DNA of 64,000 nucleotides from Cyanidioschyzon merolae. Lineage: Eukaryota. Each line of letters begins with the position of its first letter. Position 1 is the stretch's first letter. The stretch lies in NCBI GenBank assembly GCA_000091205.1, contig AP006491.2; one strand, written 5' to 3'. The position numbers and the translations under genes were made by a program. Of the stretch, positions 1,615 through 59,580 are shown one piece after another. The notes below the pieces were generated by a model. The model saw only the letters and a program-made list of their open reading frames with translations. It was not told the DNA's origin and searched no databases.

Positions 1615-2652
1615 TCAGGGGCCTGAAAGTATCCAGATTCGAGCATGCGTGGCGGCTCGTGACTCTCGTAGACGACCAAGATGCCGAAAAACATTCATCA
1701 GCGCTCTGCCCGTAGTATCCTGCTTCAGTGATGCAAAGGACTTGATATCTGTCTCGGAGAAAAAGTAGTGCCCGCGAGTCTCGTCCGTTTCCATGTCCTC
1801 ATAGCGGCAGCGCTGATCAAGCTGCGCAGAAGTGAGCTCATGCTTTGGACGACGCAAAAGCGCATACTTATAACGCAAGATGCTCTCAATATCGCTGATC
1901 GCTCTATGCAGACGCTCTATGGTGACGCGTCCGCGTATGTGCCCCGGAACTTGCTGGAGCGTCTCCTCAGTCACTGGCTCGACGCGTGGAGCGGCGTCAA
2001 CCGCCGGCGCTGCTCGGGGAAACGAGTCTCGCTTCCGTGGAACAGGCGAGACACTGTCGTTTACCCTGCCAGTGGGTGCTCCTTCTGATCCAGGTGGCTG
2101 CTGCGCGCTCGGTGGTGAAGCGTCCTCCGTACCAGCGCAAGTGCGCCCGGCGCGTCGCCGCTGCTGGAGCGCCACCTGCAAACGACGCCACTGCTGCCGC
2201 TGCTCTCGTACTCGGCGACAAAGCTGCTTCATTTGTCCGGCATATCGCAAGTCCTCCTCTAGCGCCTCTTTCAGCCAGTAGAAGTGCGTCTCCGCTGCTT
2301 GGAGCTGCGCCTCGGTGGCGTACAAGTGCTCATCCAACGCTGGCACTGCCTCAGCTGAGCGCATCAGCGCCAACCACTTGAGAGTACGCACCCGCCGGAC
2401 AAGAGTCGCAGCATCGGCACCCAGTTGACTCCCAATACCGAGTAGTCGTTGCTCATCGGGATGACCCTCAACCGGGACCTCTGAGCGTTCCCCGCGAGTC
2501 GACAGCATATGCAAAAGGTCCGACACGCGCCAGGGATTTTGAATGTCGCGGCCGCAATGGACGGTGCTTTGTTCCAATGCCGCACACGTCGATGAAACAG
2601 TCGATGCTCCACGAGCACGCAGGGTATATGAATACCGACGTGCAGACGCCAA
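1615..2652 (-). CDS. SKA1: Spindle and kinetochore-associated protein 1 (SKA1)-like, with C-terminal microtubule-binding winged-helix region
   Basis: The 345-aa ORF has the C-terminal block IRGRVTIERLHRAISDIESILRYKYALLRRPKHELT...ETRGHYFFSETDIKSFASLKQDTTGRALMNVFRHLGRLRE. This aligns by eye to the human SKA1 C-terminus (MKSRLTYNQINDVIKEINKAVISKYKILHQPKK...DTKGRYFIVEADIKEFTTLKADKK...LNILRHCRRLSEVRGG). The N-terminal start is uncertain because the first ATG lies 6 bp from a transposon remnant. Confidence 0.6.
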   Translation of the reverse strand: MASARRYSYTLRARGASTVSSTCAALEQSTVHCGRDIQNPWRVSDLLHMLSTRGERSEVPVEGHPDEQRLLGIGSQLGADAATLVRRVRTLKWLALMRSAEAVPALDEHLYATEAQLQAAETHFYWLKEALEEDLRYAGQMKQLCRRVREQRQQWRRLQVALQQRRRAGRTCAGTEDASPPSAQQPPGSEGAPTGRVNDSVSPVPRKRDSFPRAAPAVDAAPRVEPVTEETLQQVPGHIRGRVTIERLHRAISDIESILRYKYALLRRPKHELTSAQLDQRCRYEDMETDETRGHYFFSETDIKSFASLKQDTTGRALMNVFRHLGRLRESRAATHARIWILSGP

Positions 2653-2657
2653 CCAGT

Positions 2658-2946
2658 CTATGTCGACCGGCCAGCTACTAGTAGCTCCAACTTCTCCTTA
2701 TACGCCTCGAGTATCAGAGGCTGCCCCATAAAGTTGGTTCGCGCCAGCTCCTCGGGTCTCTTCTCCAGCACTGCACATCCCCTGACATTGAAGGCGGCGT
2801 CGAAGTCCCGGTACACAAATACGATACGTTTCTTCCCGTTGTTTGCACTTACGAATGCAAGTAGGCCTCGATTTTGGGCGCTCCATTCCATTTGCTCCTA
2901 CGTCAGCGCTGCGAACTTTTCTACATGCGCAGGGCTCCGCTTGCAC
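2658..2946 (-). pseudogene. Fanzor/TnpB-like RuvC-III-containing C-terminal fragment (decayed copy a)
   Basis: The 77-aa ORF reads NNGKKRIVFVYRDFDAAFNVRGCAVLEKRPEELARTNFMGQPLILEAYKEKLELLVAGRST. It is colinear and clearly homologous with the C-terminus of the 298-aa ORF at 36367..37263 (NGKKRMEFVNRDFNAALNIRTCVVLQTRPPEWTRENFVGQPLKVELYEQKLEAVVGGRS). The D-x-N-A-A-x-N-[IV] motif is the TnpB/Cas12 RuvC-III signature. The DNA at 2870..3000 also aligns with 36760..36900. Confidence 0.6.
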
Positions 2947-3380
2947 TTCTCCGTCTCGACTTTCTGAGGTGTACGCCCCAGCTCATTCCTGATTTTCTTG
3001 AAACTGAATGTATTTGTTCAAGACTTTGGGTGAAGACCTCCCGAGAAAGAGAGAAGGGCTTGCGGAAGAGAGGCGAAATTTGCCCTGGTGTCTCATTGTG
3101 TGCTGAACGAATCAGCGGTTCGCCCAGTGGAGCGATCAGTACGTTTCACGATAGAGAACATTTCCTCGCAGAGGATGCGCCACGATGAGCATGTAGGAAT
3201 GAAAAGCATCTCTACCTCAATAGAATCGGTAAAGGCTCGAACGCAAGTGGAATGGTCAAATGCCAAGTTGTCCAATAGAAGGAACTTCGCCGGACGTCAG
3301 TGACAGGTCTTCAACGATTCGACAAAGCGGGTGGTGCTGTTGTACGGGCCTTCACTACGACCGAAACTAAGGCCGCAAAA

Positions 3381-14987: not shown

Positions 14988-17023
14988 GTGTTCGCGCCTC
15001 GCCATGCTTTCGATCAAGTGACGTGTCTGCACTTGAAGAGAAAAAAGGATCCGCAGAGTCTAGAAACAACACCGTTCGGTGTCACGGGGTAGCTCAGTAT
15101 ACGGTACAGGGTTTGCCGTTCCCTCACGAATGTCTTGCTCCCTGATTCGCACAGGCACTGTGTCATCGTTGAAGGAGTTGCCAAGCAGCGAAACCCGCCG
15201 TTGACGTGTCGAAACCTTGCCGTCTCTATCGACGCCGGAGTAATCGCGAGCCACCCGGTACGACACATGGTCAAGTGGGCTACGTTGCTGCGCTCGTCTC
15301 TGACGCATTAGCTGTCTGACGAAGCGCGATGTCTGCTGCGTCATTACACCTTGTTCGTGGCGTTTTGTATTCCGGATCTTTGGCCAAACTGCATGCTTGC
15401 ATATCGCATACCGTACTGTGGTTCTGAACGGCGTCCAGTGCACTAGGGTCACAATTTCACGTTCCTAACGATGCACCTGTATGGGCTCTTTGGGTTCGCA
15501 TTGCAGCTGAGTCTGATCCGATGCCTTCAAATGACACCGAGGCGTGAGCACACGATCCATGCTGGTCGTCCTCTCACTGCGAAGCGCTCCGCGAGGCATT
15601 CTTGCAGCCGGCGACACGCACATGGGGGCGGAAACACGCACAAGCCGCTGCACTAGTGCTCGAATGTTACTTTTGGAGGCGTTCGCACGTACAAGCACTC
15701 CATCCCAGCTGCTGTATAGGCTCGGAGCGATATTCATGAAGCGGGAAATCGTTCGTGCAGAGCAATAGCCGACGTTGAACCTACCTGGTTTCATCCTCTG
15801 AGGGTCAATGGCTCATCTGTCATCCCTTTGCAGGTTCATTGCACCCTCGAAAGCGCCGTGGCTAGCAGCTGAGGCCACTGTCGTCGTTGCTGGCAGACGC
15901 GCGCCGCCTTCAGCGCAGCAGTACTGGCGGTAAACGTTCGATTTCGTCGCCATGATGACTGGAGGTTGCTCGCCTCGCGTGCCGCATTGCACGCTTATCG
16001 TTGCGCAGTGCACCCGTTTCCACTGCGAAGCAGAGATACGACCTCTCCTGGAACTGGGTTACATGCACTTCGTGCTTATCGCATAGACTCCTTCAGCCTC
16101 GGAGCTATCATCACACTGGTGCTGCATCTGGGGCACCTGCACGCAGTCCTGTACCGTGCAGCGCTCATTCGTAACACATCAGCCGGTGTCGACACGCTCT
16201 ATGCACGTGCTGCCCTTGTTACCGGAGGTATTTGCGGACACGTGCCTAGTTGATACCTGGATGCCCGCTTTTTTATGTTGCCGTTTTGGGGTGTACCAGG
16301 GGCCATACGCGCGCACGACGTGCCGCGCAGTCAGCAACACCGCGTCCCATCTCGAATCGGCGAGTCAGAGGCACTCCGCATCCCTTGCATGTGGTGATGA
16401 AATATCGCGAGGAAAACGAGACAGCTGTGAACACGTTTTCCATTGGTGCACATGCCCGAACGCGAGCCCCGGCGAATCTGTGTGCTCCCTGCCGGACTCG
16501 CGGCATTAATGCGTCTCTACAACGCGCTGATGGAGCGTGCTCTGTTCAGCATCGCTGCGAGCATCCCCTGGAGATTTGGTACTCGGGGCTTCACCGGATG
16601 ACGCTTCGAGCTCATGAAACGAACACTGGACTGGGGAGTCGGGGTTCAGAGGCGTTTATGACGGCAGTGAAGAAGGTTCCCCGGATGCCGGCAACATTCG
16701 CGCTGTCGGGGGATGCCCGTTCAACGCATGGATCGTGCGTCAACTACAACATATTCTGTTCAAATGTATTCACTTATGTACATGATCGTTTGATCCTGAT
16801 CACCGTCACCTGTGCTCCCTGCTCTCTGCATGATCACAACACATCCTGTCCTATTATATCCATTTATAGAACGAATTGTTTGTTCCTGTATCACGGGTAC
16901 CAAGCAGATCTGCTCAATGCCGTCTGCACCGGATATCTGCACTTGAACCTCGATGCCTGCCCGTGGTCGCTTCTTGCGATTGCTCTAACTTGTGATATCG
17001 ACACGCTCGGGTTCTTCAGGGCC

Positions 17024-18385
17024 ATGAAGCTGCGCTACGACTACCAGTACGGGTTCGGGAACCATTTTGCAACAGAGTGTGTACCCGGAGCGCTACCAGT
17101 GGGTCAGAATAATCCCCAAAAGTGTGCATATGGGCTCTATGCTGAGCAACTATCTGGGACGGCGTTCACGGCGCCGCGCAGCGCGAACCAACGAACCTGG
17201 ATGTACCGCGTTCGTCCCTCTGTAGACCACGGGGCATACCAGCGGGTATCTTTCGCAGAGCGAGCGCCAGGTCTGGGCTTTCGAGGACAGATCGCGACAC
17301 CAGAGCGGCTGCGCTGGCAACCGCGCGACGACGCGGCCCCAGACAGGACTGCCGACGCCGCCGACGCCGACACCGACACAGACTTTTTGCGGGGCCTGTT
17401 CCGTATTGGAGAAAACGGGCTTCCCGAGGACCGAAACGGTCTCTCCATATATTCGTATTGGTGTAATACGTCCATGGACGGGGAGGCATTCTACAATGCT
17501 GACGGGGACCTGCTCATCCTCCCGCAACAAGGCGAACTCGTGCTCCAAACTGAACTCGGCATGCTGGAAGTGCCCGCTGGGCACGTCGCTGTAGTGCCGC
17601 GTGGCATCCGCTTTGCTGCACGTGTCGTTCCCATGAGTGACACTACGTCGACTAGCCGCGGCTTTGTTCTTGAGGTCTACGACAGGCACTTTGAGTTGCC
17701 CGACCTTGGTCCCATTGGCGCGAACGGATGCGCTGCACCCCGCGACTTCCGCTACCCGCTCGCCTATGTGGACCGCGATACCCTCCAGAGCTCTTGGCGA
17801 ATATGGGCCAAGTTCCAAAACCAGATCTTTATGTATGAGACGGATCACTCCGTCTTCGACGTTGTCGCCTGGCACGGCAACTACGCGCCATTTGCCTACG
17901 ATCTGGACCGCTTTTGTCCGGTAAATGCGGTTCGTTTCGACCACATGGACCCATCGATTTTCACGGTGCTCACTTGTCGCAGCGATGAACCTGGAGTGGC
18001 GCTAGCTGACTTTGTTATATTTCCACCGCGCTGGAACGTTCAGGAGCACACGTTTCGACCTCCGTATTTTCATCGAAACTGCATGACGGAGTTCATGATG
18101 AACCTAGCGGGAGAATACGATGCGAAGAGTGCGGCGGGTTTCCCACCGGGTGCCTGCTCGCTCCACTCGATAATGAGTGCGCATGGGCCGGATCTCGAGT
18201 CTTTCGCCCGGGCTGCCACGGAACAACTCCGACCGAAACGCCTACCGGACTCGACGCTGGCGGCTATGTTCGAAACCAGTCGTATGTTGCGCATTACCAA
18301 AGAGGCGCTAGAGCTGCTCCCTCTTGATCGAACGTATACGAGTTGCTGGCGCGATTTTCCGCCAGCAACGATACCTTCTTCATAG
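17024..18385 (+). CDS. HGD: Homogentisate 1,2-dioxygenase (tyrosine/phenylalanine catabolism)
   Basis: 453-aa reading from MKLRYDYQYGFGNHFATECVPGALPVGQNNPQKCAYGLYAEQLSGTAFTAPR... through the cupin core (...HRNCMTEFMMNLAGEYDAKSAAGFPPGACSLHSIMSAHGPD). These are classic HGD N-terminal motifs and the length is typical for HGD. The six-frame ORF extends upstream to 16250 without a stop, but that upstream part is AT-rich and non-homologous. Confidence 0.9.
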   Translation: MKLRYDYQYGFGNHFATECVPGALPVGQNNPQKCAYGLYAEQLSGTAFTAPRSANQRTWMYRVRPSVDHGAYQRVSFAERAPGLGFRGQIATPERLRWQPRDDAAPDRTADAADADTDTDFLRGLFRIGENGLPEDRNGLSIYSYWCNTSMDGEAFYNADGDLLILPQQGELVLQTELGMLEVPAGHVAVVPRGIRFAARVVPMSDTTSTSRGFVLEVYDRHFELPDLGPIGANGCAAPRDFRYPLAYVDRDTLQSSWRIWAKFQNQIFMYETDHSVFDVVAWHGNYAPFAYDLDRFCPVNAVRFDHMDPSIFTVLTCRSDEPGVALADFVIFPPRWNVQEHTFRPPYFHRNCMTEFMMNLAGEYDAKSAAGFPPGACSLHSIMSAHGPDLESFARAATEQLRPKRLPDSTLAAMFETSRMLRITKEALELLPLDRTYTSCWRDFPPATIPSS

Positions 18386-18899
18386 CCAGTGCTGGGGAAG
18401 CATTGAAGCATGCGTCTTGAATGGCGAAGGATCGTTGCATCTAATCCGGAATCCTCCGCGTCCAGATCGACCTCTTACCGTTTGGTCGCTGCGGCAGACC
18501 GCACGAGCTGCGAAGCGCTTCACGATGGAGCACGGGAGCCAGCTGCGTCGATGCCGCCCGGACTGCACTGCCTATCGGCAAGGTGTGTTTGGTTTTTGTG
18601 CACAGCACCAGAGACTGCACGTCAGCCCCGCAGTGCGATGGGCGCACCATGCCTATTCTGTGGTGTAGCCCGCAGGGCATACGCAGAAACGTCAATACAG
18701 GACGAGAAAACACGTTCAGCTGGATGCAAATCCCCGAGCGGCAACAACCGACGCACCGCATCGCGCAAAAGCCTCGAAGCATCCACACCCGCGTACGTCT
18801 CCGATTGGAACACGCAGAACTGCTCATTCTTGTCCTAGCTGGATATTTTCGACGTTGTTTTTTCGAGTTTCGAGCATCGGCATCCAAAGCGCGCGAAAA

Positions 18900-19980
18900 A
18901 TGACGTAAAAATTCAAAAGCATTCTAGGATTCTCGGTCATCTTTTTGGAGTGGGTGTTCGGAATCTTTGCTGTTGGCACTCGTCACATTACCGGAATCAG
19001 GATGATTCAAAATGCCCTCGACCAAGCGTTCGTAACATATACGATATCATTATGCATTTCATACGTGCAAGCATCCACACTTCGTCACCGAAGCTTACGT
19101 GTAGCATGTTTGATACGCGGATGTTTCAAGTTTTCGATCGTGCTGTCTCCATGAAACTCATGGGCAGACCAATGCACGCTTGAGGATTTACGAGGCAGAA
19201 AGTCGACGTCGTCCCCAGACGACTTGTTCATAAGCTCACGCCGACGCGCACGGAACTTTTCATGTGAAATCACTGATTCCGTTCGAAATACAAATCCGAG
19301 TCGGTTTGTTGCCATCATTGAAGCGACCTACAACGGCGGCGCCGACGGCAGCAGCAGCAGCAGCAGCAGCGTACCTCTCACCAGATATGCTCGCCGAGGC
19401 ACCCGTCTCTTCTGTTTCCATGGGAAAAAAGAAGCTTTGACACGGACTTGAATCATTGCAGCAATCGCCGGAAGCAGAGCGTACGTCGCCGCTTTGCACG
19501 AAGGGGGCGTAGACGACTCGAAATTTCTCGACTTGGTCTCGAGCTTGGATTATCCTTTCGGTTTTCGTTTCATCATCAGCAACATCGTGTTGCACAAACC
19601 CTCTGTCGAATGAGAGAGCGTGCACTTGCACGCCAAGCGTAGACGCCGAGGACATCGCCCAGAAGCGGCAACAAAGGCGTGTATCGAGAGGCAAGTCTTC
19701 TGGACCAGTCGAGTGCATGTACGAAGCGATGAAGCGAACGTTCACGCACTCCAGTGCAGTCATCGGAGAAGGAGGACGCTGAGGTGCAGCGGATACACCC
19801 GGACACCTAACCACATCCACGTGTCAACGCCGCGACGGGCGCCCCGACGCCGTACGCAAAGCAGTTGAAAATGACAAGCGCAGCGTGGATCGCAACTTCC
19901 GCCTCTGCAAGAATTGCGTGGAAAGCAGCCAGAAGCAACAATCCCGTTACCTGAACGCTGCCATATCATCCTCCGGGAAC
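18900..19980 (+). mobile_element. Degenerate Fanzor-bearing transposon remnant (copy b); boundaries approximate
   Basis: The DNA is colinear with 48800..49960 (copy d). Examples: attaccggaatcaggatgattcaaaatgccctcgaccaagc...catttcatacgtgcaagcatcc aligns with attaccttgccggaatcaaaatgcttcgcgacgccctcagacaagc...caattcatacgtacaagaatcc, and catcatcagcaacatcgtgttgcacaaaccctctgtcgaatgagagagcgtgcacttgcacgcc aligns with cgtcatgaacaacatcgcgttccacaaatcctctaccgaatgggcgagcgttcacttgcgtgtgc. Its 3' part (about 19930..19975, ctgaacgctgccatatcatcctccgggaacg) is a decayed version of the RuvC-III coding segment. A lower-GC island. Starts about 500 bp after the HGD stop. Confidence 0.5.
19348..19370. repeat. (GCA)n microsatellite inside transposon remnant b
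   Basis: ggcagcagcagcagcagcagcagc is visible directly. Confidence 0.85.
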
Positions 19981-20437
19981 GTATTACGGAGCTGGGGCGA
20001 CAGGAGACCCTGACACAATTAACGCCGCAAATATGAGTGACAGAGAGGGATAGAGGAAAAGGCTGGTACTAGTGGCGATCGCAAGTAATCCGACGTTTAT
20101 TGTAGACGCCTGACTCAGGATAGTGGACTCGTTTCATTTCAGTCCGATACGGGTGTAAGATCTTTACGGTCCTTGCGTGTGAACGAAGGAGTCAGTGCTT
20201 CATTTTGGAGAAAGAATAGGCACGACCTGGCAACTTGTGCAGAGCAATGCCGCCGAGCATACCGTTCAGCTGTTGTGGGTCTTCCGGTGGCGGGCGGTAC
20301 GTGAAAGCGCCCTCAAGCAACGCGCTTTCCCTGACGAGACCGTGTACTACTCACTCTGTTCACAAATGGGAGCTTTCGAGCACTGTACTCGAGTTTGAAG
20401 GCTTGATACGCCAGAACCAGTCTCGAGCCTGCTCTGG

Positions 20438-22948
20438 ATGCGTTCCAACGGAACAATCACCACACCCGAGCGTCCGTACAGGCCATGGTGGAAAGCCGAG
20501 CAAGTCCAGCAAGCACTCGAGCGCGGTACAGTGGTGGCAGGAGAACTTCGTGTGAACGCCAAACAACCTGGGGAAGCTTTCGTGCGCAGCGTGCACCACA
20601 AAAGAGATATCTTTATCCAGCGGGAGCAGCTTCGCAACCGAGCGCTCGACGGAGACCTCGTTGCCGTGTTGGTAAAGACGCGTCCACGACGCAACAGCAA
20701 CTCAGCAGCAGTACCAGTAGCAGTTCAGGACTCGTGTTCCGAGCCGTCGACCTCTGACGGGTCGTCGCTCGGAGCCAGCGCCGAACTCGAACGTGACAAG
20801 GCGCTAGGAACACTGCCTCTGGGTCAACCGAGGACGCACCTGGAGCCGGCCGAAGGCCCAGAACCCGAACACCTATGCGGGCGAGTCGTTGCTGTTTTGG
20901 AGCGCCACCGACCCCGATACATATTTGGGCGAGTGGAACGACACGATTCACTTCTGTGTTTGTCACCAGATGATCGACGTCTACCAAGGTTTCAAATCGA
21001 GCTGGTTGGCTTCTGCGCTCGCGCTAGGGAACGCCTGTATCGAAGCGTTGGTCATCTAGCTGTCGCAACGTTCACGGGCCGTTGGCATACACACGACACC
21101 TTCCCGCGGTGTGCGCTCTTGCGACTCTGGGACGAGAGCGATGACCTCGCTGCTGGCATGTCGCTTATTCGCTACAAGTTTTCTGTACCACCGGCTACGG
21201 CCTCGTGCTGGATACCGCTTTCGAAAGCAGTTGCCTGGGATGCATCCGCTGCGGGTACCGCTTGGGATGCCTGCTCAAAAAGTCATAACATTCGTGACTG
21301 GCGCGACGCTGTTCGGGCGTTCACCATCGACCCGGAGACGAGTCGCGACCTCGACGATGCGCTGTCGGTGCGCTGGGATCCCGATGCAAATGGGTACCGC
21401 GTTGGCATCCATATCGCAGACGTGTCGGCCTATGTACAAACTGGGACCCTATTGGATGAGGAGGCAGCACGCCGAGGCACTAGTTTCTACTTTATGGACC
21501 ATGCAGTACCGATGTTGCCGCCAGCGCTTAGCGAAGACCTCTGCTCGCTGCTCCCCGGACGCGATCGACGAACCGTATCGGTAGAGATTCTGCTGACAAC
21601 AGATGGGACAGTGCAGGGTGAGCCCTGGATCGGTCGCGGGCTTATCCGGAGTTGCGCCAAGCTCTCGTATCAGCAGGTCCAGCGGATCCTGCGGGATCGG
21701 GATCCGTCTCAAGTTTCCGATCCGTTGATAGCGGACGTGCATCTCCTGTACCGTTTGGCAATGCAGAGGCGGCAACAGCGACGCGCTCGGGGCGCGCTCC
21801 TACAGTTTCAACGCCAGCTGTCGCTGGAGCGAGTGCGCGCTATTCGTTCATTCGCGAACCTGAAGAAGACGGGCGAACCAGACGGTGCACATTGGCTCGT
21901 GGAGGAATTCATGCTCCTGGCGAATGAACAGATCGCGAGGTTCCTCCAGCGGCACTGTCCCCGGGAGGCACTCCTGCGACGTCATCCGCCGTTCGATAAA
22001 ACGCTCGTGGAGCGTATTACCCAGTGGGCGACAAAGCGAGGCCTCGCATTCACAGCAAGCGATACGCAAGCGCTCCAAACGAGTCTGGATGCGCTAGCGG
22101 ACACAGCACCGATCGCAATGATCGTTCTCCGCAACAAACTTACCAAGGCGATGGCGACTGCTGAATACATCTGTGCTGGTGCCTTTGACGATGCAGCCGC
22201 TTACCGTCACACTGCACTCGACCTGGATGTGTATACGCATTTTACCAGCCCGATACGGCGCTATGCGGACATCATTGTGCACCGACAGGTGCTTTCGGTG
22301 TTGGACGCGCCAAGTGAGGCACGGTCTGGTTCCCAGAAGCCGGTTGCTCAGCAGGTCGAAGCCGTCTCCGCGATCGCTGCACACTGCAACCAGCGCAAGA
22401 AGGATGCCGACGCTGCGGAGTCGGCGGCTGCTTGGCTCCATCTCGCACAAGAGCTCCAGGTCGAGCCGCTCGAGTGCGATGCGATCATTGGGGGTTTCCC
22501 GAACAGTTGCCGTTGCTTGGATGTATATGTACCAGTTCTGGACCTGGAGGTCGTACTGGACTTTACAAGGGACCTCGGCGCTTCGGTTTGTCTGCAGACC
22601 AGGGATCCAGTGACAGGTCTGGAGGAGCTCGAACTCGAATGGCCAGTGCATATACTGAGACCGTACGGCCTGGATGAGGCGCGCACGTCGTTCATTGTGG
22701 GGCTCGGCAAGTCGAGCGGGACCCATCCCGCCGCCTCACTGGTGTCAGAGGCGTGGACGATCCGAGTGCGTCTCCGAGAACTCGATACCTGTCGAGTACT
22801 CGTTTCGGGGGAGACTCGACCCTATGTCCACGCTCGCGTGCAGCTGATTCTAGACAGATGCAGTCCAGCGGACGCGCAGCGATACGTTCTGCGAGTTGCA
22901 AGCGTGCCGTGCCTATTGACGGAAAGCGACCACGACTTGCTCGACTAG
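20438..22948 (+). CDS. DIS3L2: RNase II/RNB-family 3'-5' exoribonuclease, DIS3L2-like (no PIN domain apparent)
   Basis: 836 aa. The N-terminal cold-shock region is GELRVNAKQPGEAFVRSVHHKRDIFIQREQLRNRALDGDLVAVL. The RNB catalytic motifs are FTIDPETSRDLDDALSV and HFTSPIRRYADIIVHRQ. A C-terminal S1-like region follows. Confidence 0.85.
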   Translation: MRSNGTITTPERPYRPWWKAEQVQQALERGTVVAGELRVNAKQPGEAFVRSVHHKRDIFIQREQLRNRALDGDLVAVLVKTRPRRNSNSAAVPVAVQDSCSEPSTSDGSSLGASAELERDKALGTLPLGQPRTHLEPAEGPEPEHLCGRVVAVLERHRPRYIFGRVERHDSLLCLSPDDRRLPRFQIELVGFCARARERLYRSVGHLAVATFTGRWHTHDTFPRCALLRLWDESDDLAAGMSLIRYKFSVPPATASCWIPLSKAVAWDASAAGTAWDACSKSHNIRDWRDAVRAFTIDPETSRDLDDALSVRWDPDANGYRVGIHIADVSAYVQTGTLLDEEAARRGTSFYFMDHAVPMLPPALSEDLCSLLPGRDRRTVSVEILLTTDGTVQGEPWIGRGLIRSCAKLSYQQVQRILRDRDPSQVSDPLIADVHLLYRLAMQRRQQRRARGALLQFQRQLSLERVRAIRSFANLKKTGEPDGAHWLVEEFMLLANEQIARFLQRHCPREALLRRHPPFDKTLVERITQWATKRGLAFTASDTQALQTSLDALADTAPIAMIVLRNKLTKAMATAEYICAGAFDDAAAYRHTALDLDVYTHFTSPIRRYADIIVHRQVLSVLDAPSEARSGSQKPVAQQVEAVSAIAAHCNQRKKDADAAESAAAWLHLAQELQVEPLECDAIIGGFPNSCRCLDVYVPVLDLEVVLDFTRDLGASVCLQTRDPVTGLEELELEWPVHILRPYGLDEARTSFIVGLGKSSGTHPAASLVSEAWTIRVRLRELDTCRVLVSGETRPYVHARVQLILDRCSPADAQRYVLRVASVPCLLTESDHDLLD

Positions 22949-25166: not shown

Positions 25167-26511
25167 AAAGTGGTACACCGCAGGGCCTGTATGCACATGT
25201 AATCAAAAACATCCGGCTACAGCGTTGTTCGGTCGTTCACAGCATGATTCGGGTCTCGTGAGAAACATCTGGTGAACGACCTTTGCGGGATAATGGGGTT
25301 TCAGATAAGGTCTGTACCAAGATACGGTACAACGAAGCGTCTTGACCTGATGCAAGCGGCTTTATCATGGTCCAAATGGACAAATGGCGTGCCCGAAGTG
25401 GAATGCGCTCAAACCATGCTTCCTCCGGTGCATCATCCTGCATGAAGGACGGCATGCGTTGGAGCGTAGCGCTCGAGCACCGCACGAGACGCGCGACTGG
25501 TGCGCAGTATCTTCCAGGACTTACGCGATCCGCAACGACTGGCGGGTAGAGCTGGTGCACGGCAGAGCGGCAGCGTTCCAATTGTACTGAAGCGCGAGAC
25601 CACCCGACGGCGTACGAAGCGTCTCTACTCCGTTTATTGGCAGCGTGTGCACCCTCGCGGGAATGCTGCTTCGAACTGTGTTCCAGCAGATTTCGAAAAT
25701 GCACTGGCAACCAATCGTTCTGAGGCAACGACATCGAGTGCTGTAACAGTGGCCAAGCTATCGACACGCGCATGCAACCACGAAAGCGCACAAACGCTCA
25801 GGCGCTTCTGTGCAGAGCGGTGTACCTGCTCACGGGTCTGGGCGCTTTACTCAACCTGTCTTTAACACTTGGCGACAACTATAAACGACAAAATTACAAA
25901 CAAATGAAGGTCCAGCGGCCTCTCGTGGTGCGCGTGCACGCCTTGCACGGTGCAGCTGTGCTCGCGAGAGCGCCTTCCGGCAAACACCAGCAGCAACAGC
26001 GCAGTGCGCTGCTCTAACCTCCGTAGCCCGCTGAAGACGCGCGATCCCAGCTATCCATCCAAGACGGCCTTCGGACTCGTATCCCGTTGACGGAATGCAT
26101 GGAGGTATCGCAGGTATGCTCGTCGTAGCTGCCGCACCCAAGCGACGAACTCGAGGGCGTAGGCCGAGGCACGCGTACTCCTAGTCAGGGCTGGAAGACC
26201 CAAAAAAACAGAAATGTACAGATTACATGAGACCCCCGCCAGCGCCAGCGCCCGCGCCAGCGCCGCTCGTGACGCTGTCCCACGCTGACGCAACGTTTCC
26301 CTGCCCGAGGTACCATCGATGCGTCTCAGCGGGCATCTCGCCGCTGCGCTATGCTTATTTGGAAACGGAGAAGCAACCGCCAAACCACTCCAGAAACTCA
26401 CCCTGCCTGCTGGGGATTCTTTCAGAGAACAACCCCAGCGCGTACCCGTCGGGCGTCACGCTTGGTTCTTCAAGGCGTTCGCCAGGTGCGTGCCTTCCTG
26501 CATCACCGCTG

Positions 26512-36419: not shown

Positions 36420-37263
36420 ACAACAAACGCCGGTCTAAAGTCGAATGTCGCCTGCACTGTACAGTACCGGCGAGAAATTCGCCCCGGACAAGACGTCTCC
36501 AAATTATTCGCGGACGCCTCCCCGTGGTTCTCGACCGGCCACCTACTACTGCTTCCAACTTTTGCTCATATAATTCCACTTTGAGAGGTTGCCCCACAAA
36601 ATTCTCTCTTGTCCACTCTGGAGGTCTAGTCTGCAGCACTACACATGTCCTTATATTGAGAGCTGCATTAAAGTCTCGGTTCACAAACTCCATGCGTTTC
36701 TTACCGTTGGTTGTTATGCTAACCAATGCAAGGAGTCCTCGAACTTGTGCCCTCCTTTCCATCTGCTCTTCCGTCAGCTGTCCGTACTTTTTTATATCCT
36801 CAGGGCTCCTCTGGCACTTTTCCATCTCGACCCTTTGAAGTGTGCACCCCAGTTCATGATGTGTATACGATGTCCGGAACTCATCTATGGGTATCGTAAC
36901 GAAACGTTGTGCGCACTCCTTGTACGTTCGTGTCGTTGGAGCTGGCGTAGTCCTTTTTTGGGTCTTCCAGCGCCCTGCTCTGTATGCTTCTACCAGCCTC
37001 TGACTTTCATCCTCCTTCAAAGCGTTCAACTGATTGAAAACGTTCGCGAACGCGCGCCGCTTCCCACAATACAGATTCATACGCAGACTAGCCCACCGGG
37101 GCTTTGTATACTCCTCCCACAGTGCATCCCAATGCGCAACGCGAGCTTCCATGAATTTCCGGAAAGCTTCAAAGTCCGCTCCGCGGACCGTCACCTCGCT
37201 CAAAGCTTCCAGGTGCTCCTTCACCCCTGCATTCCATCTCTCAACTTTCTTCCTTGCATTCAC
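36367..37263 (-). CDS. Fanzor/TnpB-like nuclease, C-terminal half (RuvC-II region, zinc finger, RuvC-III), the most intact copy (copy c)
   Basis: 298-aa ORF. The segment ...AQRFVTIPIDEFRTSYTHHELGCTLQRVEMEKCQ... follows the TnpB pattern G..V..V.E.YTS..C..CG (RuvC-II Glu followed by the zinc finger). NRDFNAALNIRTC is the RuvC-III D-x-N-A-A-x-N-I signature. By comparison with copy a, which stops after ...VAGRST, the native stop is probably near 36520, and the last 50 or so codons are fortuitous read-through. Confidence 0.7.
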   Translation of the reverse strand: MNARKKVERWNAGVKEHLEALSEVTVRGADFEAFRKFMEARVAHWDALWEEYTKPRWASLRMNLYCGKRRAFANVFNQLNALKEDESQRLVEAYRAGRWKTQKRTTPAPTTRTYKECAQRFVTIPIDEFRTSYTHHELGCTLQRVEMEKCQRSPEDIKKYGQLTEEQMERRAQVRGLLALVSITTNGKKRMEFVNRDFNAALNIRTCVVLQTRPPEWTRENFVGQPLKVELYEQKLEAVVGGRSRTTGRRPRIIWRRLVRGEFLAGTVQCRRHSTLDRRLLCDGVGELEHVHAHGTIW

Positions 37264-40000
37264 AATACCGGATTCTCGATAGCATCTCGATCTCGAGAAA
37301 TCTCAAAAGACGCATATCTTTCTGGCGCACGTTACCGTCAATGCCATCTTCCGCACGCTTCGGTTCAGCGACGGGTATGATATTCGTGTGTCCGGGGTCC
37401 GCGCCAATGACAACGTCGTTATCCTCTACCTCCTGCGCGGCAGGACCCGGCTCCTTCTCATCTTCTTGTTTCGCCGCACCAACGATAACGTCGTTATCCT
37501 CTACCTCCTGCGTCGCAGGATCCGCCACCTTTTTTTCTTCATGCTTCGCCGAAGCGCAACTGAGGACGGAACTGGACGATCCACCTTCAAGCGCCGATAG
37601 TGTACGCACATGGCTACTCCATCGGTTTCGATCATCCCAGTGAGTACCTTTTGGTTGCTCGTCTAGACACGTATGAAATCGAAGGTATTCGTCCAATGCA
37701 ATTCCCGGTTTTCGCCCGTTAACTCCTTATCGCTGACATCGAACTCCGGACTGATCTTCTCCATGATGCTGTAAAGGACTCCGGAGTCGATTGAGACAGA
37801 GTGCGGCTTGATGTTGCACAACGGAACGACGTTGAAGCGCTTACCCATTAGGAAAGCCTTCCGTTCCTCCAACCCCGTCATTTCGTTTCCTGACTCAGCT
37901 TCATCTCCGCATTGCGTTCGAGTTCTCGGTTCAGGAGCATGAAATAGCGCAGGATGAGGGATACCATTTTTTTCATCTTTTTTCGTATATGATACGTTTT
38001 CTGCTGGATTTGACAAGCCCCATGACTGCACGGTGCTCTTGAATAGCCGCACGGATCAAAGTAGCTTCATACTTTCTCCCGCGTGATATCTTCTTGACGA
38101 CGAATTCGATCTCCTGTCCATTCTGGCGATCGCTCGTGATGCCATTGATGATGGTCCATATCCCCTGGCGGGAGAGGCCCAGGTACGTTGCAAAAACGGC
38201 GCATATCATGAAGCGTTTGAGTTTCATGGTCATACGATTCTTCAGGTTCGTGAGGTACTTGATCGTCCCGTATGAGTTAATATCTGCGACACTCTTGTAT
38301 AGAGTACCGTCGAAGCGGTATTCGGGGTGATTTTCGTGGACGGCATGCACTCTCTCATTTCTCCTCGACGCTTCCCCTGTGCCAAGCATCAGGTGGCGAA
38401 TAAAAGTCTTGTTGAAAAATTCTCTCGGAACCTCGAATGTTTTGATGTCCGTCATATCGCGATACATCTCCCTCGCCATATGCATCAGTTCAGAAGAAGT
38501 CTTTATAATTCTCAAGGAGTACGACTCGACACGGTTTCTGATGGCCTCTCGTAACTTTTTTTGTATGGATCCTTGGTATACTTTAGAAGACAGGCTTTCG
38601 CTACCATCTCATCTTACTGTCGCCTTCGTGCAGCTCCTTCATCTTCGCCTGCTCCTCTGGACTCGGCAATGTTTTTCGTTTTTCTCTGGCAGCTGGCGAC
38701 ACCGACCCTTCGAAATCCTCCACTTCCATATCAATGACTTGCTTATATTTTTTGGAAAAGAACGCACTATGAACGCTTCTGCTGGAAAGCGCGAAAACCC
38801 ACTGAGCACACTAAACTGAGGTTTGAAAAACGATCGGATTCAAAGACTATACTTTGCTATGACTTGAACGCGAATACATCTTGGACGCTATCGTAACACG
38901 CTGATGCCGCGATGCCATGCCGTTTTCGTGCATGCGACAAGTCCCCGGCAACAGTGCACGCTCCGAATGCCGCATCGCGTGTTTCCAGTCAAGTCTACGA
39001 ATAAGAAGGATGGCGCTTCCATTCGACGGCTACATGCGCTTCTTGTCTCATTTTTTGTCTGACAAACCGTTTACATTTACCATGGATCCTAGATTGCGGG
39101 ATGGGTATTGGCTTTCGGGAAAGTGTCCATCATGCTGTACCCTACGTCAAATGTCTATGACCTGTTCTCGGATATACTGGTTATTTCGCACATTCTGTTG
39201 TGCGCCGACTACCTGCTCCGAGCGCCGCCCCCTGCAGCGCGCACACTGCTGGTACGGATGCAGTATGGAAGCAGCACGGCTTTGGGATGCCGCTGAGCGC
39301 GTCAGCTCGAAGCGCTGTTCACCTACAACGGGGTCGGAGTGCATAATCATTCTGGGAGCCTGCAAACCGCGCAGGTAGAGCTTCTGCGTGCGGCAATGCG
39401 ATGCGATATACTAGGAGTCCAGTGCAACCGGGGCGACGCCCAGACGCAGCCTACCTGCCCCTAGTCCCAGAGTGAATTGCGTTGCGGACGAGCTGCACAG
39501 ATGTCACTACAGCACCCGCCACTGCAGAGGAATACGGAGCAAAAACTCCGGTGGACTCGTCCAGCTCGCGGGATCTTCCGCCTAGAAAATAATCTTTTGA
39601 AAAAACGGAAAGTTTTCCCCCTTTCGAACGCTGACGATGCAGTTCGAACGAAATTGTTATCAAGTTGCTATTTCATGGTTGGTTTCTATCCCTTTTTCCA
39701 TAGCGCGGTCGATACCCGAACTTGGGATCGCCTCGGCATGCGAACGGTGGCATCGGGAACCGCTGGCCTGTGTAGACATTTTGTCAAATAAAAAACACAA
39801 ACGCTCCCTGGATCCTTCGAAATCCAATTCCCGATACAAATACTTGTTCGACTGCGGTGCATTGCAGTACTTGCTTGCAAGGAGCATTCGTTACTTTCCG
39901 AGACGCTTCCAGTAACCGCGCGACCGGTGATTCTGGTAAGGTGCATCGGGTGCTGACCCTGAATACCCGGACCCCCGCGCGAATGGCCAGGTGCTGGCAG
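36420..40000 (-). mobile_element. Fanzor-bearing transposon (copy c), lower-GC island; boundaries approximate
   Basis: GC content drops visibly between about 36500 and 40500. Consecutive minus-strand ORFs in shifted frames (37241..37696, 37663..38052, 37973..38515) lie upstream of the RuvC ORF, indicating introns or decay of the N-terminal half. It carries modules repeated elsewhere in the window: 39330..39800 matches 47860..48290, and 39050..39140 matches 60330..60440 (reverse complement). It also has a tandem peptide repeat, QEVEDNDV(I/V)(V/I)GA. Confidence 0.5.
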
Positions 40001-40825
40001 CTCGACGTCCGCCGCTCCGAATGGCGGAGCTCTCACAGGCACTGGACAAGCGTCTGCGTTTAGGATACGGTCTGGGGGAATCGCCTGCCTCGAGAGGCCT
40101 GGAAGATGGACTCTACCATGTCAGCTGGACCCGCCAAGTCTCTTCGCTGCCCTTGTACGACCAAAGCGATTGATGTTCTGCCTAGCGAAGACGTGCTTAC
40201 AACCTAAAGTTTGTGTGTCGCTTCCCAGCGTTATCAACCTCAGTCTATATGAGGTGTTGATACAACTGTCTGCTTTTCTTCCCCATTATCTCCGAATTGA
40301 ACTATGTCGATCTCTCCGTTCCATCAAGTTCCGCTCTTAGCAGTCGACGTATGTTATAGGCAGCGTTCAAGTTCCGATTTAGCTGCTTCCGGCTGTTGCG
40401 CACGAATATCATTCCCATACGCTAGTTCCGAAACCTCGGCTTGAACGCTGCCATCAACAGAAACCGACTGCTTCAACCGGAGCTGCAAGGACAGGCCAAG
40501 GCATTGTGTTCAAAGCCGGATTTAACAGAGAAGGAAAAGAGGCAGCCGCAGGAAAATCTTTCAAACGCTTGTGCCAAGAAAGACGTCTGGCGCAACCGCA
40601 TGCAGTTCTCGTGAGTGCACTCGCCGATCGCTCAGTGGATCCGTTCCACTTTGATACTGGCATGGGTGCATTGAAATAAAATGAGACAATGCACACCTAG
40701 CAGCTGCAATCGCGATCGCCAGTCGATGCCCTGGTGAACGCCGTCGTGAGCAGGTCTCGCGAATACTGTATGTAATTGGAACATATGGACATGAGCATAC
40801 CCGAGAGGCTGCGCTCCCGTCGGGT

Positions 40826-49960: not shown

Positions 49961-50445
49961 AAAGGAGGAGGAGGAAAGGCGGCGGTCGCAAAGTCCTGCA
50001 AATACTGATGCTGACGACAAAGGAAATAGACTCAAACTCTAGCGTTAACGCCCGCGTTCAATCTGCGTACCCATTCTTATTTAGTCTGACACGGGGTAGC
50101 GCATCTGTGTAACATCTCGGCAAATGCTCCGAGCAGACGCCACTTCACATCGGTCGCCATTCGAATCGAGAGCCACGAATTCCGGGCAGCATCAGCTGCC
50201 GCTGCAGTATCCCCGGTTGGCACACCAGGGTCCCTGCAAAACAACGAGTCCATATGCGCATCAGGTATCGGGCTGGCGTCAGACGCGCCAGCGCTCGTGC
50301 TGACAACAACGATCGCTTACTGCGCCTGCATACTCACGCGCGCATGGTACCGGTCGCGTCGAGGCGCCGCTGTGCAGGGGCGCAGCTTCACTCGAATACA
50401 ACGATAAGCACGTTTGCCATCCGGTACCGTCGCCTTGGCGAAGAC

Positions 50446-59444: not shown

Positions 59445-59580
59445 CTAGGTAGCATACGCGCACACCGATCATGATCAGAGACCGACCACGTACACCGCTG
59501 TGGAACTGCGCTCTGGTTACCCACTTGACACGATTGGGATCCCATTGACTGCTGCGAGCCCGAGGTTGCAACCCAGAGGA

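What the first reader, a model, noticed from the sequence alone, without database searches (positions are those of the whole stretch)
18900..19980. Third copy (b): TE-derived lower-GC island between HGD and the DIS3L2-like gene
Blocks of 60 to 100 bp are colinear with copy d at 48800..49960. They end in a decayed RuvC-III coding remnant (ctgaacgctgccatatcatcctcc compared with ctgaacgctgtcatcaatattcttcgg, the latter encoding LNAVINILR). The remnant's 3' end points at the DIS3L2-like gene about 450 bp downstream in the same orientation. This repeats the geometry seen for SKA1 and AMPD.
Basis: seen in the sequence. Interest (0 to 1): 0.5.

Follow-up and report, generated by a model that had tools for sequence, protein, structure and literature searches.

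The report
Dead Fanzor transposon copy between genes
The interval is a long-dead, mutation-riddled copy of a small mobile element that once encoded a Fanzor (eukaryotic TnpB-like, RNA-guided) nuclease, inserted between two housekeeping genes of an uncultured hot-spring red alga; it is an ordinary genomic fossil, though from a previously undescribed element family.

Summary
Window 18806-20003 aligns colinearly with 48733-49940 (61% identity, 1259 columns, E 3e-84).

It is one of at least 12 dispersed, near-full-length copies (1.27-1.42 kb) found in the window and in metagenome contigs of the same organism. The copies form a star phylogeny: 51-60% pairwise identity and 65-75% identity to the consensus. 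They carry no codon-periodicity signal, so each died and then drifted neutrally.

The 12-copy consensus restores a roughly 410-430 aa ORF bounded by a roughly 24-bp terminal inverted repeat. The ORF carries the Fanzor signature:
- no Glu at the canonical RuvC-II position (VIVGYG);
- an alternative Glu about 42 residues downstream (IWEHLTTAKCHRCEG);
- a C4 zinc ribbon;
- NRDLNAAINI.

The consensus passes Pfam's threshold for the Cas12f1-like TNB domain (27.3 bits, cutoff 26.3). It aligns to a Fanzor1 profile at hhalign probability 98.4% (E 1e-14), and that profile itself hits the solved Fanzor1 structures.

Copy b has 9 frameshifts, 7 in-frame stops and mutated catalytic residues. It is absent from the orthologous HGD-RNB spacer of two related algae, and its length accounts for the extra spacer.

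The "3' end points at a host gene" geometry is true for b but not significant for its family (8 of 13). It is significant only for the separate Fanzor1 family, copies a and c (12 of 14).

The parts
18790..20158 (+). Copy b: a complete but dead copy of a roughly 1.37-kb Fanzor-encoding transposable element (the 'b/d family').
   Evidence: The family nucleotide HMM matches 18798-20164 end to end (hmm 2-1386). TIR remnants extend this to about 18790-20158. Identity to the 12-copy consensus is 75%. GC is 0.514.
18790..18811 (+). Decayed 5' terminal inverted repeat. Consensus: CACyCGTmTCAGAyTAAAATGGAAC.
   Evidence: At consensus level the TIR matches at 21/24 positions (88%), and at 82% over 28 nt. 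It is not detectable in b alone (z = 0.4).
19206..19238 (+). Candidate RuvC-I remnant, TSSPDDLFISS (consensus TSSLDDLFTSS).
   Evidence: Taken from the per-copy motif table. The position is about 200 aa upstream of the [TS][TS]xxC motif, inside the D-X(125,275) window of Bao & Jurka 2013. The assignment is an inference and was not confirmed by profile alignment.
19348..19368 (+). (GCA)7 microsatellite specific to copy b.
   Evidence: It falls in a 24-nt gap in copy d in the pairwise alignment.
19792..19974 (+). Remnant of the alternative RuvC-II glutamate, the C4 zinc ribbon and RuvC-III, readable in one frame: DTPGHLTTSTCQRRDG...RNFRLCKNCVESSQKQQSRYLNAAISS.
   Evidence: Translation is and the motif table. 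Lesions in b are Glu to Gly, the second Cys to Arg, and RuvC-III Asp to Tyr. The corresponding consensus segment scores 27.3 bits on PF07282.
20131..20158 (+). Decayed 3' terminal inverted repeat (GTTTCATTTCAGTCCGATACGGGTG).
48714..50098 (+). Copy d: a second dead full-length copy of the same family. It retains NRDLNAVINILR.
   Evidence: Family HMM match 48720-50106. It has 4 frameshifting indels and 6 in-frame stops relative to the consensus ORF. It is convergent with the SNF2 gene at 50446-53367 (minus).
40207..40429 (-). 5'-truncated 3'-end fragment of the b/d family (NRNLNAAYNIRRLL).
   Evidence: nhmmer hmm 1100-1321, E 2e-16.
40382..40673 (+). Second 5'-truncated 3'-end fragment. It lies head to head with the previous one and ends about 250 nt upstream of the co-oriented ABC-F gene (start 40925).
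   Evidence: nhmmer hmm 1100-1382, E 1e-13. The ABC-F gene is supported.
17000..18385 (+). Upstream host gene, homogentisate 1,2-dioxygenase (context). Its stop codon is about 405 nt before b.
   Evidence: Pfam HgmA_N E 6e-106 and HgmA_C E 1e-64.
20438..22948 (+). Downstream host gene, an RNB-domain 3'-5' exoribonuclease (DIS3L2-like) (context). Its ATG is about 280 nt after b.
   Evidence: Pfam RNB E 8e-89. The nearest named relatives are Cyanidiococcus RNB protein and DIS3-like exonuclease 2.
36445..38700 (-). Copy c (context): a frameshifted Fanzor1-family gene of a different, younger family. Its 3' end lies about 60 nt upstream of the AMP deaminase ATG. The 5' limit is approximate.
   Evidence: ORFs are. 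More than 200 relatives appear. The superfamily profile hits Fanzor1 PDB entries 9cf0, 8gkh and 9cer. The 3' end comes from the DNA profile.
2635..2993 (-). Copy a (context): a fragment of the Fanzor1 c family that abuts the SKA1 gene.
   Evidence: HMM hit E 8e-41. blastn gives 72% identity to c. SKA1 Pfam E 3e-36.

Best explanation
Window positions about 18790-20158 hold a fossil: one dead copy of a compact (about 1.37-1.39 kb) DNA transposon with roughly 24-bp terminal inverted repeats.

**What the element was.** Its only ORF encoded a Fanzor-type (eukaryotic TnpB-like) RuvC nuclease of about 410-430 aa. The element carries no transposase of its own, so it was presumably moved in trans (inferred).

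**History.** The family amplified in one ancient burst in the genome of an uncultured cyanidiophycean red alga. One copy landed in the roughly 690-nt spacer between the HGD gene and the DIS3L2-like RNB gene. All copies then lost function and drifted neutrally to about 25% divergence from the master sequence.

**Present state.** Copy b no longer encodes anything. It has 9 frameshifting indels and 7 in-frame stops, and a deletion removes the RuvC-II strand. The alternative catalytic Glu is now Gly, and the RuvC-III Asp is now Tyr. Its lower GC content is simply that of the element (consensus 0.508) in a 0.57-0.59 GC genome.

**Shown:** repeat-family membership, neutral decay, Fanzor homology of the reconstructed ORF, absence from the orthologous sites, and the lesions in b.

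**Inferred:** mobilisation in trans, a single burst, and that b has no present function beyond passively forming about two-thirds of the RNB gene's upstream region.
For: **b is a member of a dispersed repeat family**
- b and d align colinearly (E 3e-84).
- At least 10 further independent copies lie on other contigs of the same organism. All are matched nearly end to end by the family HMM.
- The phylogeny is a star: pairwise identity 51-60%, identity to consensus 65-75%, lengths 1268-1418 bp.

**The copies decayed neutrally**
- No frame is preferred and no period-3 signal appears, either between b and d or across 7 copies (p = 0.56).

**The reconstructed ORF is Fanzor-like**
- The consensus restores VIVGYG, then IWEHLTTAKCHRCEG about 42 residues later, then RNFRLCMKC, then NRDLNAAINILR.
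- Pfam PF07282 (Cas12f1-like TNB) scores 27.3 bits, E 4e-6, above the gathering cutoff of 26.3.
- NCBIfam Cas12f2 and guided_TnpB match at their C-terminal ends.
- BLASTP aligns the consensus to the window's Fanzor1 family over 145-165 aa, E down to 3e-4.
- hhalign against a 30-sequence Fanzor1 profile gives probability 98.4%, E 9.5e-15, over 135 columns.
- The same profile hits solved Fanzor1 structures: 9cf0 at 4e-17, 8gkh at 2e-11 and 9cer at 2e-7.
- The motif pattern fits the Fanzor definitions of Bao & Jurka 2013 (PMC3627910) and the rearranged catalytic site described by Jiang et al. 2023 (PMC10530073).

**The element has a TIR**
- The consensus TIR matches at 21/24 positions.

**b is an insertion, and it is dead**
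- Rav1-HGD-RNB synteny is conserved. The spacer is about 690 nt in Cyanidiococcus and 749 nt in GCA_041825655.1, against 2052 nt here. 2052 minus 1369 is 683. No family HMM hit occurs in those spacers.
- The lesions in b are tabulated.
Against: - No intact member of the b/d family was found, so the ORF exists only as a reconstruction with two residual frameshifts in the consensus.
- The N-terminal 234 residues of the reconstruction match nothing, and the RuvC-I assignment is by eye.
- Copy b alone gives no Pfam hit.
- The TIR is seen only in the consensus, not in b or d individually.
- No target-site duplication could be identified.
- The consensus 3' tail does not fold better than shuffles (z = -0.8), so there is no positive evidence for an omega-RNA.
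- Divergence is uneven along the element (0.34-0.42 in the middle, 0.50-0.60 in the 3' tail). Pure neutral decay does not obviously predict this.
- All copies have kept nearly full length, which is somewhat unexpected for old dead elements.
Confidence: 0.9

Rival explanations
1. Copy b is a dead transposon by origin but has been co-opted. It would now supply the promoter, transcription start or 5' UTR of the downstream RNB gene, and that role would explain its retention and orientation.
For: - b fills two-thirds of the HGD-RNB spacer and ends about 280 nt before the co-oriented ATG.
- Four other co-oriented copies end at similar distances (230-337 nt) from a start codon.
- Mid-element divergence is lower than in the tail, without any codon signal.
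- In the separate Fanzor1 family, 12 of 14 copies are co-oriented and end a median of about 60-70 nt from a start codon.
Against: - For the b/d family the orientation split is 8 to 5 (p = 0.29). Copy d and four others are convergent with their neighbour.
- About 690 nt of non-element spacer remains around b, the same as the whole spacer in relatives that lack the element. The ancestral promoter may therefore be intact: about 280 nt lies downstream of b and about 405 nt upstream.
- No expression data are available.
- The only orthologous contigs are 99.4% identical, so constraint cannot be measured.
Confidence: 0.15
2. The nuclease remnant derives from a prokaryote-type TnpB of an IS200/IS605 or IS607 element, for example by horizontal transfer, and not from a eukaryotic Fanzor element.
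For: - The reconstructed protein is TnpB-sized (about 410-430 aa) and has a canonical C4 zinc ribbon that the window's Fanzor1 family lacks.
- NCBIfam guided_TnpB and Cas12f2 are among its weak hits.
Against: - The TnpB model hit is very weak (E 0.068, 12 bits, cutoff 100), whereas the Fanzor1 profile gives E 9.5e-15.
- The canonical RuvC-II Glu is absent, with an alternative Glu about 42 residues downstream. This is the Fanzor arrangement, although it also occurs in 'TnpB2' (PMC10530073).
- The element has a TIR, which IS200/605 and IS607 elements lack (PMC3627910).
- No TnpA remnant is present. The nearby 'e' repeat is non-coding.
Confidence: 0.05
3. The b/d similarity reflects a duplicated or conserved host non-coding region, such as a shared regulatory module or an RNA gene. 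On this view it is not a mobile element, and the RuvC-III-like string is coincidence.
For: - No frame preference between b and d.
- No intact ORF in any copy.
Against: - At least 12 copies lie in unrelated genomic contexts with sharp shared boundaries.
- The consensus passes a curated TnpB-clan domain threshold and aligns to Fanzor1 over 135 columns.
- The motif is absent from shuffles.
- No Rfam family matches.
- The element is absent from the orthologous spacers.
Confidence: 0.02
4. Copy b is still a functional Fanzor gene, and its apparent frameshifts are really introns or assembly errors.
For: - Fanzor genes can contain introns (PMC10530073).
- One frame of b is open for 76 codons across the zinc ribbon and RuvC-III.
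Against: - b has 9 frameshifting indels and 7 in-frame stops.
- Catalytic Glu is Gly and catalytic Asp is Tyr, and the RuvC-II strand is deleted.
- An independent metagenome contig of the d locus is 99.4% identical and carries the same lesions.
- There is no period-3 constraint.
Confidence: 0.01

Closest known systems
Fanzor1 elements of Cyanidioschyzon merolae (CMe-1A, with TE-N2_CMe), Bao & Jurka 2013, PMC3627910
   Same: - Same algal class.
- A multi-copy, old, Fanzor-only element that encodes no transposase of its own.
- Copies lie between genes of a compact genome.
- In this window, the c/a family plus the roughly 700-bp 'e' repeat closely parallel CMe-1A and its separable 5' 635-bp module.
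   Different: - The b/d family is about half the size (1.37 kb against about 3 kb).
- It is more decayed: about 75% identity to consensus, against about 80% for CMe-1A, which still has intact ORFs.
- It has a canonical C4 zinc ribbon and a recognisable TIR. CMe-1A was reported to lack TIRs.
- It shares only about 25% amino-acid identity with the Fanzor1 c family over the catalytic half.
Fanzor1 nucleases with solved structures (SpuFz1 8gkh, PpFz1 9cf0, GtFz1 9cer)
   Same: - Homologous RuvC catalytic half: the LY..K.RA helix, the VVAYG-type strand without Glu, an alternative Glu before [TS][TS], and RDLNAAxNI.
- Support: hhalign E 9.5e-15 to a profile that itself hits these structures.
   Different: - The reconstruction is much shorter (about 420 aa against 600-900 aa).
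- Its N-terminal half is not alignable.
- It keeps CxxC...CxxC, where the window's Fanzor1 relatives have VRGLLWC.ST.
- No omega-RNA or activity is demonstrable, and copy b is inactive.
Bacterial TnpB of IS200/IS605 and IS607 (e.g. ISDra2 TnpB) and Fanzor2
   Same: - Similar protein size.
- C-terminal zinc ribbon followed by RuvC-III (PF07282 hit).
- A single-ORF element.
   Different: - The element has a TIR (IS200/605/607 have none).
- There is no TnpA.
- There is no canonical RuvC-II Glu.
- The NCBIfam guided_TnpB match is far below its cutoff.
- No Fanzor2-specific comparison was made.
Promoter-proximal insertion bias of eukaryotic transposons (e.g. Mutator-like elements, P elements, Tf1). 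This comparison rests on general knowledge and was not checked in papers here.
   Same: The elements sit in short spacers near gene starts. For the c family there is a strong co-orientation and close proximity to start codons.
   Different: No insertion mechanism or target motif was identified. For the b/d family the bias is not significant.

Membership tests
TnpB/Fanzor superfamily (Bao & Jurka 2013 signature D-X(125,275)-[TS][TS]-X-X-[C4 zinc finger]-X(5,50)-RD) | [TS][TS]-X-X followed by a C4 zinc ribbon. | tested here: met
   The family consensus reads HLTTAKCHRCEG...(21)...CMKC. Copy b reads HLTTSTCQRR...CKNC, so 3 of 4 Cys are retained. Pfam PF07282 scores 27.3 bits against a cutoff of 26.3 on the consensus.
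TnpB/Fanzor superfamily | RD (RuvC-III Asp) 5-50 residues after the zinc finger, in the context RD.NAA.NI. | tested here: met
   The consensus reads CVDNSRKQRNRDLNAAINILR. It is intact in d and mutated to RY in b. The motif gives 0 hits in 50 shuffles of the window.
TnpB/Fanzor superfamily | RuvC-I Asp located 125-275 residues upstream. | tested here: inconclusive
   The candidate SSLDDLF lies about 200 residues upstream and is conserved in most copies. This region did not align to any profile.
Fanzor (rearranged catalytic site, Jiang et al. 2023, PMC10530073) | The canonical RuvC-II Glu is replaced by an inert residue, with an alternative conserved Glu about 45 residues downstream. | tested here: met
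   The consensus PVIVGYG has no Glu, and the Glu of IWEHLTT lies about 42 residues later. hhalign aligns it with the DEFRTT Glu of the Fanzor1 profile. In b this Glu is Gly and the VIVGYG strand is deleted.
Fanzor | Encoded in a eukaryotic (or eukaryotic-virus) genome within a transposable element. | tested here: met
   The host genes are eukaryotic (SKA1, AMPD, DIS3L2-like) and the nearest named relative is Cyanidiococcus. The element occurs in at least 12 dispersed copies with a TIR.
Fanzor | A conserved structured guide RNA (omega-RNA / fRNA) at the 3' end of the element. | tested here: inconclusive
   The consensus 3' 225 nt folds at z = -0.8 against shuffles. There is no Rfam hit. The 3' tail is the most divergent part of the element. 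Decay could have erased any structure.
Fanzor | RNA-guided DNA endonuclease activity. | not testable with these tools
   This needs biochemistry on a resurrected consensus. Copy b cannot be active.
Fanzor1 clade specifically | Phylogenetic placement within Fanzor1, together with the large N-terminal WED/REC region. | tested here: inconclusive
   The catalytic half aligns to a Fanzor1 profile at E 9.5e-15. However, the N-terminal half does not align, the protein is TnpB/Fanzor2-sized, and no tree including Fanzor2 and TnpB was built.
IS200/IS605 or IS607 insertion sequences | No terminal inverted repeats, subterminal hairpins, and an associated TnpA (Y1 or serine recombinase). | tested here: not met
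   The consensus has a TIR matching at 21/24 positions. The element contains no second ORF. The adjacent 'e' repeat shows no coding signal.
Autonomous TIR DNA transposon | Encodes its own DDE-type transposase and is flanked by target-site duplications. | tested here: not met
   Only the Fanzor-like ORF fits in 1.37 kb. No TSD is recognisable in 11 copies, although decay may hide short TSDs.

The most novel reading that the evidence does not exclude
Fanzor elements in this compact red-algal genome may be inserted, or selectively retained, in a position- and orientation-specific way just upstream of host start codons. Their 3' ends, where a guide RNA would be encoded and from which the guide reads into the flank, face the gene. 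Dead copies such as b could then be leftovers of a system that either homes to gene 5' ends or supplies promoters or 5' UTRs to host genes.

The evidence is strong only for the separate Fanzor1 family. There, 12 of 14 copies are co-oriented, and element ends lie about 25-250 nt from the ATG. It is weak for b's own family (8 of 13).
Probability: 0.2. Interest if true: 0.6.

Novelty: new member of a known kind. Interest (0 to 1): 0.3.

Why it matters
In itself, copy b is a genomic fossil with no demonstrable present function, so it matters little.

Three modest points of value come out of the analysis.

1. It documents a second, previously undescribed, compact Fanzor-type element family in Cyanidiophyceae. 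The family has a TIR, a roughly 420-aa nuclease and a canonical zinc ribbon, and it shows the Fanzor rearranged active site. The only Fanzor family reported for C. merolae in 2013 was the roughly 3-kb CMe-1A.

2. The reconstructed ancestor is a candidate for resurrection as a small eukaryotic RNA-guided nuclease from a thermo-acidophilic lineage.

3. Those copies sit, co-oriented, within tens of nucleotides of host start codons far more often than chance would give. If this holds genome-wide, it bears on how such elements choose or survive at their sites in a very gene-dense eukaryotic genome.

Tried and rejected
**Searches that gave nothing for b, d or their family**
- tblastx of b against d scored about equally in all six frames, so it could not identify a coding frame.
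- An HMM of the window's Fanzor1 (c) family detected nothing significant in b or d directly, and gave only weak colinear hits on the 7-copy consensus.
- Pfam on raw ORFs from b, d and c gave nothing.
- A profile of the three C-terminal remnants, searched against 5.8 billion proteins, found only the d ORF itself on a 99.4%-identical metagenome contig. No intact relative is on record.
The consensus as a single query then worked.
- A scan of viral contigs found no relatives.
- Rfam at gathering thresholds found nothing in the window.
- The RNA fold of the consensus 3' tail was not unusual.

**Searches that failed for the c family before the broader profile worked**
- phmmer of the c ORF against the PDB gave no Fanzor hit.
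- A narrow 20-sequence profile (A3) against the PDB also gave none. Only the broader 30-sequence profile A5 worked.
- AlphaFold on A3 gave pLDDT 38.8, so no fold search was attempted.

**Tests for coding constraint and structure**
- Period-3 and coding-constraint tests were negative between b and d, across 7 copies and for the 'e' repeat.
- Per-copy TIR detection was not significant, and the repeat finder found no terminal inverted pair in b or d.
- No TSD or target motif was recognisable.

**Ideas considered and dropped**
- That 'e' is a decayed IS607-type TnpA: it has no coding signal.
- That frame p0 'IIDSVRNTN' is RuvC-I: this was superseded once the long open frame became clear.
Full report
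**1. Checking the observation**

blastn of the interval against the whole window gives a single colinear, same-strand match: 18806-20003 with 48733-49940, at 61.4% identity over 1259 columns and E 3e-84. The global pairwise alignment shows ungapped blocks of 48-169 bp at 61-75% identity. These are separated by indels that are mostly not multiples of three.

Copy d reads NRDLNAVINILR in frame, and copy b reads SRYLNAAISS. A regular expression for this motif hits three places in the six-frame translation (36652 minus, 40350 minus, 49876 plus) and none in 50 shuffles.

The flanking genes are as described.
- HGD ends at 18385 (Pfam HgmA_N E 6e-106).
- An RNB-domain gene starts at 20438 (RNB E 8e-89). 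Its best named relatives are DIS3-like exonuclease 2.

The element is 0.514 GC, against 0.58-0.59 for the flanking ORFs.

**2. It is a member of a dispersed repeat family**

A self-comparison of the window and contigs fetched for other reasons revealed five more near-full-length copies at unrelated loci of the same organism. A metagenome scan with the reconstructed protein added about five more. A nucleotide profile HMM matches every copy nearly end to end. It also detects two head-to-head, 5'-truncated fragments at 40207-40429 (minus) and 40382-40673 (plus).

Twelve copies aligned together give a textbook star phylogeny:
- all pairwise identities are 51-60%;
- each copy is 65-75% identical to the consensus;
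- lengths are 1268-1418 bp.

Neither b against d nor the 7-copy alignment (period-3 power p = 0.56) shows any codon periodicity or frame preference. The copies therefore diverged neutrally after inactivation.

**3. What the element encoded**

No copy has an intact ORF. The consensus, however, restores a nearly continuous reading frame of about 410-430 codons. It starts at an ATG about 75 nt from the 5' end and stops about 60 nt before the 3' end, with two residual frameshifts. It contains, in order:
- SSLDDLF, a candidate RuvC-I;
- LYRMEQRALARAADRVL...KKPVIVGYGTGRG;
- IWEHLTTAKCHRCEG;
- RNFRLCMKC;
- NRDLNAAINILRLL.

This is the Fanzor/TnpB signature of Bao & Jurka 2013, D-X(125,275)-[TS][TS]-X-X-[C4 zinc finger]-X(5,50)-RD (PMC3627910). 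It also shows the rearranged catalytic site that Jiang et al. 2023 describe for Fanzors. In that arrangement the canonical RuvC-II Glu is replaced by an inert residue, and an alternative Glu lies about 45 residues downstream (PMC10530073).

The statistics are as follows.
- The consensus C-terminal 119 aa scores 27.3 bits (E 4e-6) on Pfam PF07282 Cas12f1-like TNB, above the gathering cutoff of 26.3.
- With the cruder 7-copy consensus the same model was the top hit at 21.9 bits.
- NCBIfam Cas12f2 and guided_TnpB matched weakly at their C-terminal ends.

**4. Relation to the other 'copies' in the window**

Copies a (2635-2993, minus) and c (36445 to about 38700, minus) belong to another family.
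- An HMM of c's more than 200 metagenomic relatives does not detect b or d.
- A profile of 30 diverse relatives, drawn from an exhaustive HMMER scan with 1448 hits, matches the solved Fanzor1 structures. These are Parasitella 9cf0 (E 4e-17), Spizellomyces 8gkh (2e-11) and Guillardia 9cer (2e-7). The c family is therefore Fanzor1.
- The b/d reconstruction aligns to that profile with hhalign probability 98.4%, E 9.5e-15, over 135 columns running from the LY..K.RA helix to RP..L.
- BLASTP aligns it to individual c-family proteins over 145-165 aa at about 25% identity.

So b/d is a distant relative of Fanzor1 in its catalytic half. It is smaller, keeps a canonical C4 zinc ribbon, and has an N-terminal half that matches nothing.

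**5. Termini**

Conservation across copies starts and stops sharply. The consensus ends form an inverted repeat. Reading outward from ...AATGGAAC, 21 of 24 positions match (88%), falling to 82% at 28 nt.

This TIR is not detectable in b or d individually, which is expected after about 25% divergence per arm. No target-site duplication was recognisable.

An element of 1.37 kb with a TIR and only a Fanzor ORF has no transposase of its own. It was presumably mobilised in trans (inference). The TIR argues against an IS200/605/607-type origin.

**6. Copy b in particular**

Relative to the reconstructed ORF, b has the following lesions:
- 14 indel events, 9 of them frameshifting;
- 7 in-frame stops;
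- a deletion that removes the VIVGYG strand;
- the alternative Glu changed to Gly (DTPGHLTTSTC);
- the second zinc-ribbon Cys changed to Arg;
- the RuvC-III Asp changed to Tyr.

It also has a private (GCA)7 microsatellite at 19348-19368. It is a pseudogene.

**7. It is an insertion**

The RNB gene's nearest named relative is Cyanidiococcus yangmingshanensis, at 57% identity. The organism is therefore an uncultured cyanidiophycean red alga, present in several JGI metagenomes.

The Rav1-HGD-RNB gene order is conserved in Cyanidiococcus and in assembly GCA_041825655.1. tblastn places their HGD-RNB spacers at about 690 nt and 749 nt. The window's spacer is 2052 nt, and 2052 minus the 1369-nt element is 683 nt. 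The family HMM finds nothing in those spacers.

**8. The 'geometry'**

Copy b's 3' end faces the co-oriented RNB start codon about 280 nt away. Across the b/d family I could score 13 copies.
- Eight are co-oriented with the downstream gene: b 274 nt, the 40-kb fragment about 245, L003 45, L004 230, L006 284, L025 337, and two at 829 and 941 nt.
- Five are convergent, including d.
- This gives p = 0.29 against 0.5. The geometry is not established for b's own family.

For the Fanzor1 c family I located element ends with a DNA profile.
- Twelve of 14 copies are co-oriented with the next host gene.
- They end about 25-250 nt from its start, for example about 60 nt before the AMPD ATG.
- The two exceptions end 27 and 58 nt from stop codons.
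- This gives p = 0.0065 against 0.5, and 0.04 against a null of 0.6 that allows for longer promoter-containing spacers.

This is a real trend worth a genome-wide test, but it concerns a different family from the finding.

**9. Comparison with what is known**

Bao & Jurka (2013) reported one Fanzor1 family in Cyanidioschyzon merolae, CMe-1A. It is about 3 kb, has about 150 copies at about 80% identity to the consensus, and has no TIRs. Its 5' 635 bp also exists as a separate roughly 70-copy element, TE-N2_CMe.

The c family plus the roughly 700-bp non-coding 'e' repeat mirror that arrangement. In this window 'e' is at 38970-39727 and 47461-48253, and it lies upstream of and co-oriented with c genes in L003 and L004. 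The b/d family is a second, older and smaller lineage that I did not find described.

It files as a new member of a known kind. It is a Fanzor-type transposon fossil, not a new kind of system.

**10. What remains uncertain**

- The RuvC-I assignment and the N-terminal fold.
- The exact clade: Fanzor1-like, Fanzor2 or TnpB2.
- Whether an omega-RNA existed. The 3' tail fold is at z = -0.8, and Rfam gives nothing.
- The mobilising transposase.
- Why divergence is lower mid-element than in the tail.
- Why head-to-head truncated pairs recur: window 40.2-40.7 kb, and L025.
- Whether b contributes to RNB expression.

Noticed in passing
window 36445-38700 (-) and 2635-2993 (-); loci L003, L004, L006, L007, L008, L010, L026, L027, L028: The Fanzor1 'c' family sits with its 3' end about 25-250 nt (often about 60 nt) upstream of a co-oriented host start codon in 12 of 14 scorable copies. 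The host genes are AMPD, SKA1, PI3/4-kinase, Kri1, Cys-tRNA synthetase, DEAD_2 helicase, Macro, DnaJ, abhydrolase, RF-1, S21 and a 500-aa gene. The binomial p is 0.0065. The two exceptions end 27 and 58 nt from stop codons.
   Followed up: partly
window 38970-39727 (+) and 47461-48253 (+); fragments at 44063-44326 (-) and 60289-60487 (-); L003 7572-8339, L004 714-1018: A third dispersed repeat family, 'e', is about 700 bp long with about 67% identity between copies. It shows no coding signal. It often lies upstream of and co-oriented with Fanzor genes, which resembles TE-N2_CMe and the 5' module of CMe-1A described in C. merolae.
   Followed up: partly
window 40207-40429 (-) / 40382-40673 (+); L025 2333-3011 (-) / 3033-4281 (+): Head-to-head pairs of 5'-truncated b/d-family copies occur at two independent loci. 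The origin is unexplained. Possibilities include aberrant transposition or hairpin-mediated inverted duplication.
   Followed up: no
protein P0007 (ENA metagenome): A called 'protein' reads through from the end of a Fanzor1 c-family gene into a b/d-family copy in the reconstructed frame (46% identity over 63 aa). The two families are therefore also adjacent or nested elsewhere.
   Followed up: no
window 44642-45375: A tandem array of a 105-bp unit (about 7 copies, 97-98% identical) lies inside or next to ORFs. The copy number differs from the 99.4%-identical metagenome contig L001. Other tandem repeats are at 26503-26878 and 59577-59836.
   Followed up: no
window 37380-37560 (-) and relatives P0004, P0014, P0018: The Fanzor1 c-family proteins carry a variable number (2 to 7 or more) of an acidic repeat of about 20 aa (...EAGPA.QEVEDND.VV.A.K.E..K...) immediately before the RuvC-I GADPG motif.
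   Followed up: no
b/d family alignment (consensus positions 541-900 vs 1081-1390): Mean pairwise divergence among copies is 0.34-0.42 in the middle of the element but 0.50-0.60 in the 3' tail, with no period-3 signal. Simple neutral decay does not explain this.
   Followed up: no
window 19260-19820 (-): A 186-aa antisense ORF lies inside copy b. It has no Pfam hit. The family consensus also has long open antisense frames (up to 232 codons), so this is most likely a by-product of GC-rich former coding sequence.
   Followed up: partly
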